From NCBI RefSeq assembly GCF_009914755.1, contig NC_060929.1: DNA of 64,000 nt. One strand, given 5' to 3'. Source of the DNA: the human T2T-CHM13v2.0 reference genome, Homo sapiens. Positions 16,603 through 39,510 of the stretch are shown here, in pieces (the first letter of the stretch is position 1; each line of letters starts with the position of its first letter). The notes under the pieces were generated by a model. The model was given only the letters and a program-made list of their open reading frames with translations. It ran no database searches and was not told where the DNA came from. The translations under genes and the position numbers were made by a program.

Positions 16603-17659
16603 GAACTGCTTCTGTGTCCTCAGATCTCCATCGTTCATCTCCTGATAAGTCCCTGAAAATTTCCTGGCCCCTTGGAGCTCCTTCCAGGAGTAGAATGATC
16701 ACAAGAGCTGCCATGTATTGCTTATTCTGGCCTATTTCCTTAGGCACATTAGCCCATCTAACCGTTTCCATGGCCCACAGAGGTGGGAGGAGCATGAAGA
16801 AAAATGCAAGGAAATAAGCTCATCTCAAGGTATCTCTGGCTCCCAAAGAACATAGGACATTACCAACTTGAAGTTAGCTTCTCAGGAAACTAAGACCCAG
16901 CTGCTTTTCAAATCCTCAAAATATTAGTATGAATTATAGATATAGTTATAGCCTTCAGAACTTCTGGCACAGCCCAAAACTGTTGGCTGTAAAACCATGT
17001 TTCCTAAATTCAATCATGTTTCTCATTGATTTCCATTTTGAAATTGGAAGTCTTTGCCCTCAAGATATAATAAAAACCATACCAAAGAAAATGGAAAACT
17101 TTTCCCCCTTAATATTTAAAGGAGAATGATTTTTATAAAAAAAAAAAAAAACATTCATTTGTCTACTTAAAGTAAATCACAGTGCAGTGCCAGTCTGGGT
17201 TTGGAGCATAACACTTTTTTTGATTTATGGTTTCTGCCAGGAGACACCCAGCTAATGATATTTGTTCCTATGTCCTTCTCTGACTAGCTGGGTGGCAGCT
17301 AAAGAGCTAGGGTGAGGGGAGACCAGAACTCCAGGCCTGTCCCATGTTCCTGTCTCACCCATATGTGGATTTCAACCCTGGGCTTAGTGTCTGCCTCTAG
17401 CGACATGGGAAGAGAGGGATGGGTCCTCTCCTTCTTCTTGTCAAATGGCCCCCAGAGTCCCACCAAGGTGGAGCTCCAGGCTCCTGACCAGCGGGGCTCC
17501 CCAACCCTCCTGCTGTGCCCAGTCTATCCCTCCTTCCACGCCCAGCAGAGCTCAGCAGACTTGCCCTTGGCCACTCTTGTGCCTTCACTGCTGTGTGTCC
17601 TGGACAGGAGCCAGCGTGGGCTTGCTGATCACAGAGAAAGCTCACGTGGCAAAAGAACC

Positions 17660-18000
17660 AGTGAGATTAACAAGTCGAGGTTTGGGATATATCTTAGAGA
17701 TGGAGCCAATGGGGCCTGCAGAGGATTTCCCTGGGGACTGGAAGGGTGAGGAAGGAGAATGCTCTCAGATGACACCTAGGTGGCTGATGTGATAGAATGG
17801 GCATTTTCTGGAAGATCTGTTCAGGGGCATTTGGTGAGACAGAAATCAAGGGTTTGGCTTGGGACCTGATATGTTTGATCACCCTGTCAGCCACCCAGGT
17901 GGAGAGGTTGAGGAGATGGCTGATGGCATGGGTCTGGAGCTCAAAGGAGAGGCTGGGTGAGGCTTGAGTTACACATTTGAGGGCATCCATGATGTGAAGC
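17660..18000 (-). mobile_element. L2 fragment
   Basis: ggatatatcttagagatggagccaa...gatgacacctagg...ggtctggagctcaaaggagaggctggg. Confidence 0.6.
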
Positions 18001-24870: not shown

Positions 24871-26969
24871 CATGCACTTTTCCTTGAAACTGCATCCCTT
24901 TTCCCTGAAGATGAAGCTTGAAAGAACTCTAAGAGGTTAAGCATGGAGCTGATGGGCAAGCCACAGGCAGAAAGAGTAGCTGTGCAGCCAGGCTCCTGGC
25001 CAGGGAGGGCAGATAAGGAGGGGAGGCAAAGTTTGGTAAACAGGAAGCTAATCTATGGGCAAGAATCATTTTCTTCAGCATCCTGACCTCTCCTAAAATG
25101 TTCTCCACTGGTCCCTGCTAGGACAAAGGAATTACCACCAGACTAGAGTCAGGAGTCCTGGGCTGGTTCTGCTGTATGACACAGGACAGGTGGCTTGCCT
25201 GGTCTGGGCCACAGCCTCCTCCCCTGTTGATGAGCATGTTGGTTGTTCCAGCACCATGTCAGCCCTAGAAATCTCTGAATTCTTGACCAGATCAGTAATT
25301 GCTCTCTTGCGTTTACTTTTCCTTCAAATAAAGAGATTGGCATACAGGGGAGGAGCCCAGTACAGACGGCATGCTTGGCTCAGGTTCCAGAACCCAGAAA
25401 CCAGACAAGAGTTGGGAAACCATGATGGTGGAGGAGGGTGTGCCACTCCTTACTAGTGCCTAATCTCTTCGAGACACTAATGTTTCAGTATTATCCACAG
25501 ATTCTGATGCCAGGCAGCCCAGATGACTGGGGTCAGTTATTAGCATGCTTCCTGGAGGTGGTTCCCAGGTGCAGGCTACCTGCAGTCTGGCTGGATGGGC
25601 CCTGCACCACACTTGCTTCTGGGAAGCTGGTTTTGGGGTTGCCACAATCTCTGAAAGAATCACTAGGCCACCCTCTGAGTGGGTCCTTCTGTAGGAATTA
25701 TGGATAAAATTGTTCCACTAGTCTTACCTTCTTGGGGAACCCTTCCTGGATTCCCAGGCTGGGCTGGGTGTCCCTGCAGCCTAGCCCCACAGCCCTCCTG
25801 CTTCTCTTTCTCATCACAGTCTTGTTATCTCTACCAACTGTAGGCCTGCCCCACTGATGGTGTGAATAAAGGGACTGGGTCTCTCTAGCACCTAGCATAG
25901 ATCTGATACATAGTGGGTGATCTCTATTGAATGAACGATGAATGAATGAATGAATGAATACATTTAGATAATTCAGATTACTCTTTCTAGCTCAGCAGTG
26001 TAAAGCAGGAAGACATGCTGTCAATATGATTTAGGGCAAGTTTTCAAATCTCTCTGGACCTCAGTTTTACCTCTTGAAAAATAAATATAATAATTTGTCC
26101 TTACTTCATGAGACTATTTTGAAGATTAAATGAGATAATGTATACACTACTACTCACTGTCCTTACTTGAATATTCCTAGGTCCTTGGTGCTACATTAGG
26201 CTACATAGAATGTATTTAAAGTAATAGAGTGGTATTTAATAAATATTCATTTTCTTTCCCCAGAACTACCTTAAATTAATTTGTTGAAAGGACAGATGGA
26301 TGGATGGTTGATGGAAGTAGCAGGCTTCCAGCAGCAGGGGATGGAGTGAGTGTGTGGATACCGCTGGATCAGCAGAAGGTTATACCATTTTAGAGTAACT
26401 ATCTCGGACTTCGGAGAGTTCCTGGGTATGAAGCTTTGGCTTTAATTAAAGTCTCAGCACAGTGTTAAATGCCATTTTATTTTAGGTCATAATTAACGCT
26501 AATGAGATGAGTGGATTACAAAGAGCACACATTTTGAGAAAGTGAAAAACAACATCTGAGCTTGGTGGTTTCCATTTTCGCTTTTCCCCCTCCCATGCTC
26601 TGTTCAATTAAAAGTTTTGAGAAAATATTACAACCATACTCCTTGTCTTTGTGGTAATGAAGCATATTAATTTGAATGTGATGAATACAATATTCCACTG
26701 ACTTTTTTATTCCCTTATCTACAAAAGTTTAAAATAATGGACCAATTAAACCAGGAGAGAAGAATGCAGGGTTTGCCTGGGGATCCAATTCAGCAACCAG
26801 AGAACTGAAAGAACAAAATTTTTTGACGGAGTCTGGGCCAGACTTCATCCCTTACCTATAGCTGACAAACAGTAAGTCAAATTGGGCAGATGTGGACCAG
26901 CGCAGAACACATACTATATTGAGGATCGAAAGGCCAGGTTCCAGACCGTCCTCTAATATTTTCTTAGTG

Positions 26970-36398: not shown

Positions 36399-36830
36399 CC
36401 TTTCCAATATTAAAATAATATTAACATTGGTAATAGTGGTACTAAACAACTTAGGGTGTTTTTTTTTTCATTTAATAGTATATTTTTAGTATCTTTCCAG
36501 GAAAAGATACATGGATGTGCCACATTATTTTTAATGGCTCACATGGTACTCCTTTTATGTATGCACTATAATTTATGGAACCAGTTTTCTCACCGATGAG
36601 CATGTAAGTTCTTTCAGTCTTTTACTGTTATAAACGAATGATGCAATGAATATCCTTGTACATATATATTTGTGCGCATATGTAGGTATCCTTACAAGTG
36701 GAATTTCTGAATAAATGGATATATACAATTTATTTATGAATTTACCTTCCTACAAGTGATTCAAGAGAGTGTCTTTGCTCCACAGTGTTGTCAATATAGT
36801 GTATTCTCAAAATCTGACACCAATATGTGT
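36210..36830 (-). mobile_element. Very old L1 (L1ME-like), antisense
   Basis: ttttactgttataaacgaatgatgcaatgaatatccttgtacatatatatttgtgcgc...agtggaattt. Confidence 0.6.
36362..36397. repeat. (GT)18 microsatellite
   Basis: Directly visible, about 1.4 kb upstream of the coding exon. Confidence 0.95.
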
Positions 36831-37800
36831 GAAGTGCCTGCTCTGTTCCCACACTTTACACAGGTTCTCTTATTTGCGTTAAGTTTATTTAAGAAGAGGA
36901 AACTGGGCCTCATGGAGATCTAGGAACTTGCCCAAGGACAGGTCTCTGTGACTCTAAGAGTGCAATCTTCCCTTTTCCCCATGTCAAGCACCTTTCCCCA
37001 CCAGGCTCACTGCTGACAATCCAGTGTACGAAGAAGGGAAATTACCCCCACAGAGCCCAAAAGTTTAGGACATGCCGACAGCATCACTCTTTTGCCTCCT
37101 CATTCTCTCTTTCATTTCCAGAACATTTGCTCACTCAGTGCTGCCCAGTGATACTTAGCCAGCCTGATTACCCATCTAATAATTTCTGATACTAATATAA
37201 AACCTTCCCAAAGACAAATATAACTGAGACGCACTCCAGCTTACCATAGCTTTCCTGGTGGTACAGTTTCCAGGGACATTTCACTGTGTCAAAGCAGGGA
37301 CCACATATGTTCCAGACCAGCTTGTTGGGTTTTTCACTGGGAAGTGAAGACAAATTGTTGTCCCTTTGAAAAAGCATTCATCTCTCCATCTATCTGCGAT
37401 CTAAAGCAATGGGGCTCTTTCTGTATGTCTTTCAAATGGTCTACACTGACACACGTTTTCTCTGAGCTGCCGAGAGAATATGCCATGAGATGTTGCCAGT
37501 GATGGTTACACTCAGCTAGCAGAAGATTAGGGACTGGTTAAACCTTTGGAGAAATTGCCTTGGGAAAAGAGGAAATAAAAGCAAATATTACTATGAAACA
37601 TAGAGATTACCAGGTAGGAGGAGGAGAGAGGTGGAGGGAGGGGTAGGAGTGGAAGGAAGGGAGGGAGGCAGAAAGAGGAAGGCAGACTGGTGGAAAATAA
37701 ACCGTGCACTTTAGAACAGCAGGAAGGGAGGCTTGGAAGCCTGGTTTTCTGGCTTTGAATGACCGCCTAGCGCTTGCCGGTGCGCCAGGGTGCTGTGAGG

Positions 37801-37909
37801 ATGTGGGCAGAGGGCGAGTCCGAAGGGCTCCAGACACTGGGAATAGTGGTGGTCGTGTGCTCCTCCCTGAAACTTTTGCACTACCTCGGACTGATTGACT
37901 TGTCAGACG
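37801..37909 (+). CDS. KCNIP1: Alternative coding first exon of a Kv channel-interacting protein (transmembrane/KISD-type N-terminus, 36 aa + 1 nt), most likely KCNIP1
   Basis: Seen: ATG at 37801 (A at -3, in-frame TAG upstream at 37768-37770), open frame MWAEGESEGLQTLGIVVVVCSSLKLLHYLGLIDLSD, strong phase-1 donor ACG|GTAAGC. Knowledge (recalled): gapless EGL-x13-KLL-x3-GLI[DE] pattern of KChIP4a and close similarity to the KChIP4e N-terminus; KCNIP first exons splice in phase 1 onto the common exon. KCNIP1 is assigned by exclusion of the KCNIP2/3/4 sequences. Confidence 0.85.
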
Positions 37910-38083
37910 GTAAGCGAACCCTGGAGCTTCCCCGTTTTCTGTGAATGTGTTTTTGTGGCTTCGGTTGCTGTGACAGTCGTTTCGAAAATGCACGGAAATG
38001 AGGGCGGAGACCCGAGAGATTTGAAAAAGCCGGGCTGAAACAGCGTGGTATTGGTCCCCGCCTCCCCAGTCGCGCCCCAGTGC

Positions 38084-38104
38084 TGCGCTGTCCGTCGTGC
38101 TGAA
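38084..38104 (-). promoter_or_regulatory. RE1/NRSE (REST/NRSF binding site)
   Basis: Minus strand reads TTCAGCACGACGGACAGCGCA, a 19/21 match to the canonical RE1 consensus TTCAGCACCACGGACAGCGCC with canonical half-site spacing. Confidence 0.85.
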
Positions 38105-39510
38105 ATGTGGTGCGCCTGGGGAGTGCGGGAGCCAGGAAGTTAGGGTCTCCTGCTCCGGCCCTATGAGCATGTGAGTCTTGATGGATTATTAGCTATGGGT
38201 GAGGCCAGCACAACACATCACAATTCTCTCTGAAGCTGTCTGGTAACTACGTATATTGTTGATGGAAGCCAGTGACTTTTAAAAGCCATTATGTTGATTA
38301 ACTTTTTTAAAGAAGTTTAGGAGATTATATGGAGGTAAAAACCTTTGTAAAATGCTAATCACAGTGTCTGACAATTAGAACACATTTAATAAATGTCAGT
38401 TTCTTTGCTCAACCCTTATAAGAACCCTTATTCCAAAGCCACCTCCTCAGCTCTGACTTCAGCTCCATTCCTTAGTGAGAATGGGGTTATAAATCCAGGT
38501 TAACCCGATTGTTTAGGATTAGAAAGTGATTTGGTTTCCAACGTTGAAGGAGTTCAAGAAACAAAGAGTTTTATTTTTCCTCCTTATGAGATATTGTTCC
38601 AAATAGAACACAGTTTGTCTAGATGATTTTTGTCACTTAAAATTAGGCTCCAGGAAAGATTCCAAATTTCATGAGCAATTGGGCTCATAAAACAAGATCA
38701 AACTCCAATAGTGTATATCCAAAGTATGTATAATGTGTATTCGGTGTATATTCTTCCACCACTGCATGGTGTAGACAGAATTTCTCTTCCAAGGGGCACC
38801 ACATGACAAAACCGTACATAATAATGAAATGCATTTGTAGACAAAGGACTAGCTAAAATACCAACTGAAAGTGGGAAGACCAGAAACTGAAGTGTAAGAT
38901 GAGGTAAGCCCTGGAGTAAGAGTCAAGAAATCCACTTTCTATCCATAATCTGTCTCGGTTTAATGTTGGTCAAGTCATTTTTTAAAAAATTCTAGGTCTT
39001 GGTTTCCTTATGATGACTTTAGATCTCTGTTCCTTGGAATTCTAGAGTGATCCAAAGGTTTCTTTGAATTCAGTTTTGTGGGTTGAGACGGGCAGCCAGA
39101 CTGTGAGTCCCTCAGCTCTGCTTCAACCAGAACAGCTCCACTTTACTGTTCAGCATGTTAGCCCTGTATGTAAGGATGTTTTTTAGCTTTAGCTAAAATT
39201 TAGTGACTCTATGACCCTAAGGCCCTGCTTCCCTGAGATTTTGAAAGCTGAAGCACATTCGGAAAACTTTTTCTTCCTTAAAAATCACCTGAAATCTGAC
39301 AATCTGGAAGACTAGTTCTGTCTGCTCCAGCCCTTGGTCCCTTAGATGTGCTTTTCTGAAGATCCAAACTCAACCTGCCAGTCAATATACCAACTGAGCA
39401 GAGCCCCTGTTCTCCACCAGATTTCAAGAGAACATGTTCCATTCCTGTTCAGAGCTTCAGAGCAGCTTCCGCTAAGATTGCACATTAATGCAACAGCGTC
39501 CTATTTTCTT

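What the first reader, a model, noticed from the sequence alone, without database searches (positions are those of the whole stretch)
37801..37915. Hidden first exon encoding a transmembrane (KISD-like) KChIP1 N-terminus
Seen: an intact 36-codon frame, MWAEGESEGLQTLGIVVVVCSSLKLLHYLGLIDLSD, with a hydrophobic core, an upstream in-frame stop and a phase-1 ACG|GTAAGC donor. It is too short for the ORF track. Knowledge (recalled): transmembrane KChIPs (KChIP4a, 4e, 2x, 3x) use such first exons, and KChIP4a/2x/3x reduce Kv4 surface trafficking and alter inactivation. This peptide is about 26/36 identical to the KChIP4e N-terminus as I recall it (MTLEWESEGLQTVGIVVIICASLKLLHLLGLIDFSE). The commonly described KChIP1 N-termini are the myristoylated MGAV... 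form and the MSGC... form. Inference: KCNIP1 has its own little-studied membrane-anchored isoform (...LSD-DKIEDELEM...) that lacks the myristoylated Gly2 and may act on Kv4 channels differently from KChIP1a/b.
Basis: partly seen in the sequence, partly recalled or inferred. Interest (0 to 1): 0.9.

Follow-up and report, generated by a model that had tools for sequence, protein, structure and literature searches.

The report
Unannotated KChIP4e-like first exon of KCNIP1
A short, deeply conserved alternative first coding exon of the human potassium-channel partner gene KCNIP1 gives the protein a hydrophobic head like that of the known KChIP4e variant, yet it is missing from the human gene table supplied and from the KChIP papers that could be read.

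Summary
Window 37801-37909 (+) is an ATG-initiated 36-codon frame plus one base. It has an in-frame TAG 33 nt upstream and an ACG|GTAAGC donor. Common KCNIP1 exon 2 lies 37.6 kb downstream, outside the window, and starts ag|AT AAG ATT GAA. The phase-1 junction therefore reads ...LSD-D-KIEDELEM.

The exon is real. Fifteen of 41 database hits are KCNIP1 protein models from chimpanzee, other mammals, birds, reptiles and a frog that join this N-terminus to DK[IV]EDELEM. Conservation stops at the ATG and at the donor. Its only human paralogue is the KCNIP4 'e' exon on chr4: 25/36 residues identical, same phase, differences 9/3/23 by codon position.

The same exon type also heads KCNIP2 and KCNIP3 proteins in fishes and a shark, so it probably predates the four-gene family.

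It is 4e-type, not KISD-type, and it is only marginally hydrophobic. Transmembrane insertion and trafficking suppression are therefore not supported. Human transcription was not testable here. This is a new member of a known kind, of moderate interest.

The parts
37768..37770 (+). In-frame TAG stop 33 nt upstream of the ATG. It closes the frame, so the ATG at 37801 is the first possible start in human.
   Evidence: sequence; open frame of 57 aa, equal to 37771-37941.
37801..37909 (+). Coding part of the alternative first exon ('e-type') of KCNIP1. It comprises 36 codons, MWAEGESEGLQTLGIVVVVCSSLKLLHYLGLIDLSD, plus the first base (G) of a split Asp codon. The transcription start upstream of 37801 is unknown.
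   Evidence: sequence, ORF; exon 2 acceptor and phase; orthologous protein models; KCNIP4 paralogue, codon-position pattern; invariant positions.
37910..37915 (+). 5' splice donor GTAAGC, phase 1.
   Evidence: rank 34 of 2985 + strand GT sites with a recalled approximate matrix; read-through translations of 20 genomic ORFs from other species all begin 'GK', so GTAAG is conserved.
37501..38300 (.). The only CpG-island-like stretch in the 64-kb window. It is a candidate promoter region, shared or contested between the sense e-exon and the antisense lncRNA.
   Evidence: 3 of 634 windows of 600 bp reach GC>=0.5 and CpG o/e>=0.6, and all three lie within 37501-38300; 37601-38200 has GC 0.563 and o/e 0.66, against 0.22 and 0.20 in the flanks. 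(GC profile).
37618..37667 (+). Purine-rich (GGA/GGAAGG) degenerate repeat upstream of the exon, inside the CpG-rich stretch. Role unknown.
37885..38202 (-). First exon of the lncRNA KCNIP1-AS1 (hub table). It overlaps the last 25 nt of the coding exon and its donor. The first antisense intron (37559-37884) covers the rest of the exon and the region just upstream.
   Evidence: Hub table. Minus-strand splice signals were checked in the sequence: AC at 37883-37884, CT at 37559-37560 and AC at 37243-37244.

Best explanation
Window 37801-37909 is a genuine, ancient alternative first coding exon of KCNIP1. Transcription starting in the small CpG-rich island around it would give an mRNA whose first exon is spliced over a 37.6-kb intron to common exon 2. 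That mRNA encodes a 232-aa 'KChIP1e': a 36-residue N-terminus in place of the myristoylated MG... head, followed by the unchanged EF-hand core that binds the Kv4 N-terminus.

The N-terminus belongs to the same exon family as KChIP4e. It has:
- an acidic cap with an invariant E-x-E-G-L-Q-T-x-G-I block;
- a variable purely hydrophobic stretch (VVVVC);
- an invariant K-L-x-H-x-L-G-L-I block.

Inferred mechanism: the segment forms one hydrophobic helix that tethers the KChIP1 core to internal (ER/perinuclear) membranes or to a specific partner, instead of to the post-ER vesicles targeted by myristoylated KChIP1a/b. Through the unchanged core it keeps classical KChIP effects on Kv4, as reported for KChIP4e, and does not act as a KISD-type trafficking and inactivation suppressor. 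The invariant polar Lys and His inside the helix suggest a sequence-specific protein contact and not a generic lipid anchor.

Shown here: exon anatomy, splice phase, conservation, paralogy. Inferred: transcription in human, membrane association, effect on Kv4.
For: Anatomy:
- ATG, 36 codons and a phase-1 GTAAGC donor.
- Exon 2 starts ag|ATAAGATTGAAGATGAG at C5:171257498 (window-equivalent 75498), which completes GAT=Asp and reads KIEDELEM.

Orthologues (one search returned 41 hits among 61 candidates; all 41 carry the peptide):
- 15 are KCNIP1 models joined directly to DK[IV]EDELEM. They include Pan troglodytes isoform X2 (cluster of 57 members, N-terminus 36/36 identical to human), Zootoca isoform X1 (63 members), a snake, a tortoise, geckos, birds, a hamster and a frog.
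- 20 are unspliced genomic ORFs. In these the 36 residues are nearly invariant, while the 12 residues before the Met and everything after 'GK' diverge.

Coding constraint: the human KCNIP1 and KCNIP4 e-exons share 25/36 aa and 73/108 nt. Differences fall 9/3/23 on codon positions 1/2/3, pN is 0.205, pS is 0.673 and dN/dS is about 0.14. The flanks are 33/100 identical on each side.

Family:
- A whole-genome protein search finds only this exon and chr4:20965404-20965505 (E 6.5e-9).
- The chr4 exon has the same phase-1 donor and heads KChIP4 proteins from mammals to elephant shark.
- A 14-sequence profile finds 122 proteins at E<=1e-3 among 1.84 billion representatives, and all carry e-type peptides.
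- The peptide sits on KCNIP1, KCNIP2, KCNIP3 and KCNIP4 cores (source names; best human locus; core tree).

Conservation: across 92 distinct near-complete peptides, E, G, L, Q, T, G, I in the first block and K, L, H, L, G, L, I in the second are each at least 95% invariant.

Promoter-like context: the only CpG-island-like stretch of the window lies here. The KCNIP4 e-exon likewise has a CpG-rich region just upstream.

Functional analogy: properties of KChIP4e as summarised in the 2014 review (passages).
Against: - No human transcript evidence was available. None of the 7 RefSeq KCNIP1 transcripts in the hub table (RS_2025_08 on T2T-CHM13) uses this exon. The only annotated RNA here is the antisense lncRNA.
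- The CpG island could belong to KCNIP1-AS1 alone.
- The orthologous models are automated predictions, and I could not see their RNA support.
- Hydrophobicity is marginal. The best 19-residue Kyte-Doolittle mean is 1.92 (KChIP4e 2.36). A position-independent sum on a recalled translocon scale is about +3.3 kcal/mol (KChIP4e +0.75), with Lys and His in mid-helix.
- The review reports that the KChIP4e N-terminus fused to eGFP did not go to the membrane fraction.
- The functional analogy to KChIP4e rests on homology only.
- No structure prediction could be run.
Confidence: 0.72

Rival explanations
1. The exon works as a KISD-type transmembrane domain. It would span the membrane with the N-terminus outside, retain Kv4 channels in the ER, lower surface current and slow or suppress inactivation like KChIP4a/2x/3x.
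For: A 19-residue window reaches a Kyte-Doolittle mean of 1.92, above the usual 1.6 cut-off. The short acidic N-terminal flank could be translocated. The eLife 2020 authors (passages) assume KChIP4e behaves like other tmKChIPs, and they correlate it with slower, smaller A-type current in TOR interneurons.
Against: The 2014 review states that the LIVIVL retention residues are not conserved in KChIP4e and that LLH replaces VKL; the KCNIP1 exon also has LLH. The review also states that KChIP4e increases Kv4.2 surface expression, does not slow inactivation and accelerates recovery, and that the 4e N-terminus-eGFP fusion was not membrane-bound. The invariant Lys and His sit mid-segment, and the recalled-scale insertion energy is positive.
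Confidence: 0.15
2. The exon is functional in other vertebrates but silent in human. It would be an intact relic whose promoter now drives only the antisense lncRNA KCNIP1-AS1.
For: It is absent from all 7 human RefSeq KCNIP1 transcripts in the hub table, while the chimpanzee has a predicted isoform X2. The antisense first exon overlaps the donor (hub table).
Against: The ATG, the frame and the donor are all intact and identical in protein to chimpanzee. The exon is nearly invariant across mammals. Absence from one annotation is weak evidence for a short, probably cell-type-restricted first exon.
Confidence: 0.08
3. The conserved block is a non-coding element, such as a promoter or enhancer of KCNIP1-AS1 or KCNIP1, and the open frame is incidental.
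For: It lies in the only CpG-rich stretch of the window. One other ORF-plus-donor of similar quality occurs by chance in the window.
Against: Differences from the KCNIP4 paralogue fall 9/3/23 on codon positions. Conservation begins at the Met and ends at the donor in 20 genomic ORFs. The peptide is kept on four paralogous genes across jawed vertebrates, with synonymous change. No Rfam family matches 36500-39000.
Confidence: 0.02

Closest known systems
KChIP4e (the KCNIP4 variant with the 'e' first exon; named in Jerng & Pfaffinger 2008 as cited in the 2014 review, PMC3973911)
   Same: It is a homologous first exon. The human chr4 exon MLTLEWESEGLQTVGIVVIICASLKLLHLLGLIDFSE has 25/36 identical residues, the same phase-1 GTAAxx donor, the same junction to the exon that starts the common core, the same LLH motif, and a CpG-rich region at the exon.
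   Different: It belongs to another gene (KCNIP1 core). It has Gly in place of the otherwise conserved Trp before E-x-EGLQT, Tyr in place of Leu after His, and is one residue shorter. It is less hydrophobic (Kyte-Doolittle 1.92 against 2.36). It has no name in the literature I could search, no functional data and no human RefSeq transcript (hub table).
KISD-type tmKChIPs: KChIP4a, KChIP2x, KChIP3x
   Same: They also arise from an alternative first exon giving a hydrophobic N-terminal helix in front of the same EF-hand core, and they lack lipidation motifs.
   Different: They form a different exon family. The review calls 4e 'considerably different'. The LIVIVL and VKL motifs are absent here. 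The reported KISD effects (ER retention, suppressed surface expression, slowed inactivation) are not reported for the e-type.
KChIP1a/KChIP1b (N-myristoylated) and KChIP1c
   Same: Same gene and the same core from exon 2 onward (the 11-residue insert of 1b aside), so the same Kv4 N-terminus binding groove and Ca2+ sites.
   Different: KChIP1a/1b start with Met-Gly, and Gly2 is myristoylated (review). The e-type starts Met-Trp and cannot be. Its first exon lies 37.6 kb from exon 2, far downstream of the other first exons; the hub table puts the gene start about 290 kb before the window.

Membership tests
KChIP e-type N-terminal exon family (type member KChIP4e) | ATG-initiated alternative 5' coding exon ending in a phase-1 donor that joins the first common KChIP exon | tested here: met
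   exon, donor; KCNIP1 exon 2 acceptor, G+AT=Asp; the KCNIP4 e-exon has the same phase.
KChIP e-type N-terminal exon family (type member KChIP4e) | Significant sequence similarity to the KChIP4e exon | tested here: met
   the only second hit in the human genome is chr4:20965404-20965505, 74% over residues 3-36, E 6.5e-9; 25/36 aa identical.
KChIP e-type N-terminal exon family (type member KChIP4e) | Family-invariant positions (E-x-EGLQT-x-GI ... K-L-x-H-x-LGLI) | tested here: met
   14 invariant columns in 14 sequences from KCNIP1/2/4; these columns are at least 95% conserved in 92 distinct peptides. The human exon carries all of them.
KChIP e-type N-terminal exon family (type member KChIP4e) | Actually spliced to the KChIP core in transcripts | tested here: inconclusive
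   15 of 41 hits are predicted or deposited KCNIP1 proteins of other species with the junction. No RNA data were available for human, and the exon is not in the hub's RefSeq table.
KISD-type transmembrane KChIPs (4a/2x/3x) | ER-retention residues LIVIVL and the VKL-type motif at residues 19-21 (as described in PMC3973911) | tested here: not met
   The peptide reads GIVVVVCSSLKLLH. The review states that these residues are not conserved in 4e and that LLH stands at the VKL position.
KISD-type transmembrane KChIPs (4a/2x/3x) | N-terminal segment hydrophobic enough to span the membrane | tested here: inconclusive
   Kyte-Doolittle 19-residue mean is 1.92 (above 1.6), but the sum on a recalled translocon scale is about +3.3 kcal/mol, with Lys and His in the segment. 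No dedicated TM predictor or structure model was available.
KISD-type transmembrane KChIPs (4a/2x/3x) | ER retention of Kv4, reduced surface current, slowed inactivation | not testable with these tools
   Needs co-expression and electrophysiology.
N-myristoylated KChIP1 (1a/1b) | Glycine at position 2 | tested here: not met
   Residue 2 is Trp. In orthologues it is Trp, Leu or Arg.

The most novel reading that the evidence does not exclude
The e-type N-terminus is a pre-duplication, sequence-specific interaction helix that all four KCNIP genes once carried, and that humans keep in KCNIP1 and KCNIP4. Human KCNIP1 would therefore encode an unrecognised fifth membrane-associated KChIP ('KChIP1e'). 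It would be expressed from its own CpG-island promoter in a restricted set of neurons and possibly gated by the overlapping antisense KCNIP1-AS1. Its invariant Lys/His face would contact a defined partner in the Kv4-DPP complex and so set A-type current properties differently from KChIP1a/b. 'KChIP1-positive' cells would then not be uniform.
Probability: 0.3. Interest if true: 0.7.

Novelty: new member of a known kind. Interest (0 to 1): 0.5.

Why it matters
KChIP N-terminal variants decide where Kv4 channels go and how they gate. One study links a switch between KChIP1 and KChIP4e to two firing types of hippocampal CCK interneurons (PMC7269670, passages).

The field's reference list counts 17 mammalian variants: KChIP1a, 1b and 1c, with 2x, 3x, 4a and 4e as the 'transmembrane' ones (PMC3973911). 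It contains no hydrophobic-headed KChIP1 and treats 4e as a lone outlier.

The data here add two points. First, KCNIP1 carries an intact, strongly constrained 4e-type first exon. Second, the e-type exon is as ancestral as the KISD type, because it is found on KCNIP1, 2, 3 and 4 cores in different vertebrates.

If it is expressed, antibodies, probes and knock-outs aimed at 'KChIP1' would lump together isoforms with different targeting. Exon-level reanalysis of existing RNA-seq could reveal a new determinant of A-type current diversity.

The gain is incremental. The kind of variant is known, and gene-prediction pipelines already emit the isoform for other species.

Tried and rejected
Steps that could not be run or led nowhere:
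- Structure prediction of the 232-aa isoform with alignment A1 was not available, so no model of the N-terminal helix exists.
- The first protein search failed on length (36 aa, minimum 40). I repeated it with the window's own 47-aa ORF.
- The own genome cannot be searched with an alignment. I used single proteins instead.
- A profile search of solved structures gave 0 matches at E<=10, and Pfam has no family for the 36 residues. No structural or family precedent was found for the e-peptide.
- Rfam found nothing in 36500-39000.

Literature:
- Searching for three fragments of the peptide as text gave 0 papers.
- The names KChIP1c/1d/1e/1x/KChIP1.3/KCNIP1-Ic gave 3 papers, none describing this variant. 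The 'KChIP1e' hits come from a 2009 paper that I did not open.
- KCNIP1-AS1 gave 0 papers.
- KCNIP1-Ia/Ib, KCNIP4-Ie and KChIP1.2 gave 2 irrelevant papers.
- 'tmKChIP' gave 4 papers, of which 3 were listed.
- Pruunsild & Timmusk 2005 and Jerng & Pfaffinger 2008 are not held. I did not look up Pruunsild & Timmusk 2012. All three are known to me only through citing passages, so an earlier description of this exon there cannot be excluded.

Readings considered and rejected:
- An internal exon. An AG at 37769-37770 could serve as an acceptor, but a phase-1 upstream exon would then read a different frame that ends at a TGA inside the exon (read).
- Upstream extension of the frame, as in some predicted models (P0015, P0024, P0028, P0037). 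Those extensions are not conserved, and human has a stop.
- Meaning in the 187-aa antisense ORF 37607-38170 or the 100-codon frame 17445-17744. Neither has a Pfam match.

I did not run a complex prediction.
Full report
**What is in the sequence**

One search shows ATG at window 37801, followed by 36 sense codons ending GAC at 37906-37908. One extra base, G, follows at 37909, then GTAAGC at 37910-37915. One search translates the frame as MWAEGESEGLQTLGIVVVVCSSLKLLHYLGLIDLSD. Without splicing it runs 11 codons further, giving a 47-aa ORF that is below the usual 60-aa listing threshold. An in-frame TAG lies at 37768-37770. One search reports an open frame of 57 aa, which matches 37771-37941.

**Is it more than chance?**

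The ORF and donor alone are not. I scored donors with an approximate matrix recalled from memory. The donor ACG|GTAAGC ranks 34th of 2985 GT sites on the + strand. One other ATG-open frame of at least 30 codons in the window (17445-17745) ends at an equally good phase-1 donor. That frame is Pro/Ser-rich and has no Pfam match. The case rests on comparative evidence.

**Fit to the gene**

The window is C5:171182001-171246000 of the held assembly, inside KCNIP1 according to the hub table. I searched the genome with a 232-aa chimpanzee protein model, P0013, obtained. This located the common exons downstream of the window. One search shows the first of them:

- The acceptor reads ...ctggttccag|ATAAGATTGAAGATGAGCTGGAGATG at L007:1511, which is C5:171257498 (window-equivalent 75498).
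- The donor reads AAAAAT|gtaag at L007:1635.
- The G at 37909 plus AT makes GAT (Asp), and the frame continues K-I-E-D-E-L-E-M.

**Orthologues**

One search used the window's 47-aa ORF against longer proteins. It returned 41 proteins at E<=10 among 61 candidates, and all 41 carry the peptide (table). They break down as follows:

- 15 join it directly to DK[IV]EDELEM and an EF-hand core. Their sources label them Kv channel-interacting protein 1 or KCNIP1. They include Pan troglodytes isoform X2 (cluster of 57 members; N-terminal 36 residues identical to human), Zootoca vivipara isoform X1 (63 members), Naja, Gopherus, Paroedura, Tiliqua, several birds, Capra, Galemys, Cricetulus and the frog Pseudophryne.
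- 1 (a caecilian) joins it to a later exon.
- 1 (a mudskipper) has a different core, discussed below.
- 4 have other continuations.
- 20 are unspliced genomic ORFs.

In those 20, the 36 residues are almost invariant. The 12 residues upstream of the Met share nothing between species. The read-through always begins 'GK' (the conserved GTAAG) and then diverges. Conservation that switches on at the ATG and off at the donor is the signature of a first coding exon.

Rodent-type sequences start MLT... in place of MWA.... Three ORFs (P0038-P0040) begin inside the exon. I cannot tell whether that reflects the gene caller or a lesion.

**Paralogue**

A six-frame search of the whole human assembly with the 36 residues finds only two places. 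One is the exon itself. The other is C4:20965404-20965505 on the minus strand, with 74% identity over residues 3-36 and E 6.5e-9.

One search shows that locus: ATG TTG ACT ... TCG GAA G|GTAAAG, encoding MLTLEWESEGLQTVGIVVIICASLKLLHLLGLIDFSE, again with a phase-1 donor. (38 hits at E<=1 among 45 candidates) and one search show this peptide at the head of proteins named Kv channel-interacting protein 4, from horse, dog, opossum, birds, reptiles, frogs, a newt, bichir, eel and carp to the elephant shark.

The 2014 review describes KChIP4e as having a putative transmembrane segment at residues 10-32 and the motif LLH (passages). That fits this peptide, so I take the chr4 exon to be the KChIP4e exon.

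Aligned with an offset of one codon, the two human exons compare as follows:

| Measure | Value |
|---|---|
| Amino-acid identity | 25/36 |
| Nucleotide identity | 73/108 |
| Differences at codon positions 1/2/3 | 9/3/23 |
| Nei-Gojobori pN | 0.205 |
| Nei-Gojobori pS | 0.673 |
| dN/dS | about 0.14 (dS near saturation) |
| Flank identity, 100 nt each side, ungapped | 33/100 |

This is protein-level constraint, not conservation of a DNA element.

**A family wider than the literature describes**

I built a profile of 14 e-type N-termini (alignment A2; 14 invariant columns). Run against 1.84 billion representative proteins, it gave 122 hits at E<=1e-3 and 92 at E<=1e-10. All 122 carry recognisable e-type peptides, and no unrelated protein family appeared. 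Sorting them with my own motif patterns gave:

| Group | Hits |
|---|---|
| Tetrapod KCNIP1-type | 18, plus one truncated |
| KCNIP4-type | 43 |
| Teleost type, 'WE[VM]EGLQT.GILL' | 14 |
| '...FLKLMH...' type | 31 |
| 'WD.QGLQ' type | 11 |
| Divergent 'GDGL.TLAIV' type | 3 |
| Further divergent sequence (P0183) | 1 |

I assigned paralogues for representatives in two ways.

By source names:
- Heterodontus 'KCNIP2 isoform X1', cluster of 22 members.
- Teleost 'Kv channel interacting protein 3a/3b, calsenilin' isoforms, clusters of 159 and 48 members.

By best-matching human locus of the core exons:
- P0041 matches chr10 at 78-85%, against 62-68% on chr5.
- P0177 matches chr10 at 77-88%.
- P0153 matches chr2 at 80%, against 67%, 62% and 60% elsewhere.
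- P0181 matches chr5 modestly best, at 58-77%.

That chr10, chr2 and chr4 hold KCNIP2, KCNIP3 and KCNIP4 is recalled knowledge.

I also built a maximum-likelihood tree of the cores of 19 full-length e-type proteins, chosen from about 200 fetched, with the N-termini removed:
- The KCNIP1 clade has 100/100 support (5 rows).
- The KCNIP3 clade has 100/100 support (4 rows).
- The KCNIP2 clade has 95/91 support (3 rows).
- The 7 KCNIP4 rows are not resolved as one clade.

The e-type exon thus sits on all four paralogous cores somewhere in jawed vertebrates, so it most likely predates the duplications that made the family. In human, only KCNIP1 and KCNIP4 show it at the sensitivity used.

The 2014 review argues ancestral retention only for the KISD-type exons of 2x, 3x and 4a, and treats 4e as 'considerably different'.

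**Anatomy of the peptide**

Across 92 distinct near-complete e-peptides, two blocks are essentially fixed:
- E-x-E-G-L-Q-T-x-G-I (human residues 6-15), each position at least 97% conserved.
- K-L-x-H-x-L-G-L-I (residues 24-32), each position at least 95% conserved.

Between them, residues 17-22 vary but stay hydrophobic or small. The last four residues vary.

Hydrophobicity figures:
- The best 19-residue Kyte-Doolittle mean is 1.92, over GIVVVVCSSLKLLHYLGLI. KChIP4e gives 2.36.

The segment is therefore a borderline membrane-spanner, with an invariant Lys and His in its second half. Residue 2 is Trp, so N-myristoylation is excluded. No solved structure and no Pfam family covers the peptide.

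**Surroundings**

- The exon lies in the only CpG-island-like stretch of the 64-kb window. Three of 634 windows of 600 bp reach GC>=0.5 and CpG o/e>=0.6, and all three fall within 37501-38300.
- The KCNIP4 e-exon has a comparable CpG-rich region immediately upstream.
- A purine-rich degenerate repeat lies at 37618-37667.
- On the minus strand, the hub table places the first exon of the lncRNA KCNIP1-AS1 at 37885-38202. Its splice signals are present.
- That antisense exon overlaps the last 25 nt of the coding exon and its donor. The first antisense intron covers the rest of the exon and the likely sense promoter.
- The CpG island therefore cannot be assigned to the sense exon alone. Sense/antisense interference is possible but untested.

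**How it most likely works**

Shown: an intact, constrained, ATG-initiated first exon that splices in frame to the KChIP1 core.

Inferred:
- Transcription from a local promoter yields a 232-aa KChIP1e.
- Its core binds Kv4 N-termini as in other KChIPs.
- Its N-terminal helix replaces the myristoyl anchor.

For the homologous KChIP4e, the review reports the following:
- perinuclear localisation;
- increased Kv4.2 surface expression;
- no slowing of inactivation;
- accelerated recovery;
- no membrane-fraction association of the isolated N-terminus fused to eGFP.

The eLife 2020 study links KChIP4e to slower, smaller A-type currents in one interneuron type. It states that the effect of KChIP4e on Kv4.3 kinetics is not known.

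On this basis I expect KChIP1e to behave like KChIP4e, not like the KISD group. That means altered targeting (internal membranes or a specific partner) with classical core effects retained. The near-invariance of the two blocks, including polar residues, points to a sequence-specific contact and not to a generic lipid anchor. This last step is inference.

**Comparison with what is known, and novelty**

- The review's list of 17 mammalian variants has KChIP1a, 1b and 1c only.
- A 2023 review legend mentions five human KCNIP1 transcript variants, two of them unnamed.
- A 2026 paper on KChIP1 splice variants treats 1a and 1b.
- None of eight text searches turned up a description of this N-terminus.
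- The hub's RefSeq table for T2T-CHM13 shows no KCNIP1 exon here.

Against that, automated pipelines already emit the isoform for chimpanzee and many other species. The three most relevant primary papers could not be read (Pruunsild & Timmusk 2012 was not looked up). I could not consult Ensembl or UniProt.

I therefore rate it a new member of a known kind: the KCNIP1 counterpart of KChIP4e. The added point is that the e-type exon is ancestral to the whole family.

**Verdict**

- Observation: confirmed.
- Interpretation: partly supported. The exon and its 4e homology are supported. 'KISD-like transmembrane' and reduced trafficking are not.
- Expression in human remains the open point.
- Interest: 0.5.

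Noticed in passing
window 26264-26425 (+): The only KCNIP1 exon that the hub table lists in this window is an internal 162-nt cassette. It has an acceptor (ccccag|AAC) and a donor (CTGGG|gtatga), and stop codons in all three forward frames. Transcripts that include it probably start translation downstream or are non-productive.
   Followed up: partly
window 37607-38170 (-): A 187-aa ATG ORF on the antisense strand spans the CpG-rich stretch and overlaps the first exon of KCNIP1-AS1. It has no Pfam match and is probably a chance ORF in GC-rich DNA.
   Followed up: partly
window 17445-17745 (+): A 100-codon ATG-open frame, Pro/Ser/Cys-rich, ends at a strong phase-1 donor. It is the only other such configuration in the window.
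   Followed up: partly
own genome: C10 about 102.71 Mb and C2 about 95.88 Mb (KCNIP2 and KCNIP3 loci, gene names recalled): No e-type exon was detected at the human KCNIP2 or KCNIP3 loci, although shark and teleost KCNIP2 and teleost kcnip3a/3b proteins carry one. This suggests lineage-specific loss. A unnamed 'WD.QGLQ' KCNIP2-type group (P0165-P0173, P0177) comes from unidentified taxa.
   Followed up: partly
proteins P0038-P0040 (rodent-like genomic ORFs related to P0005): These ORFs begin inside the exon ('MVVCSSLK...') and not at the upstream Met. This may be a gene-caller start at a Val codon, or it may reflect a lesion upstream in those genomes. I could not decide which.
   Followed up: no
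protein P0034 (Cricetulus griseus, 441 aa): This deposited model fuses an e-type KCNIP1 with ligand-gated ion-channel domains. It is probably a read-through merge with the neighbouring GABRP gene.
   Followed up: no
KCNIP1 'first intron' (PMC4740744, passages only): A common 4,470-bp insertion/deletion in the first intron of KCNIP1 is reported to be associated with atrial fibrillation and with higher KCNIP1 mRNA. The passages I saw give no coordinates, so its distance from the e-exon and its CpG island is unknown. It is worth checking.
   Followed up: no
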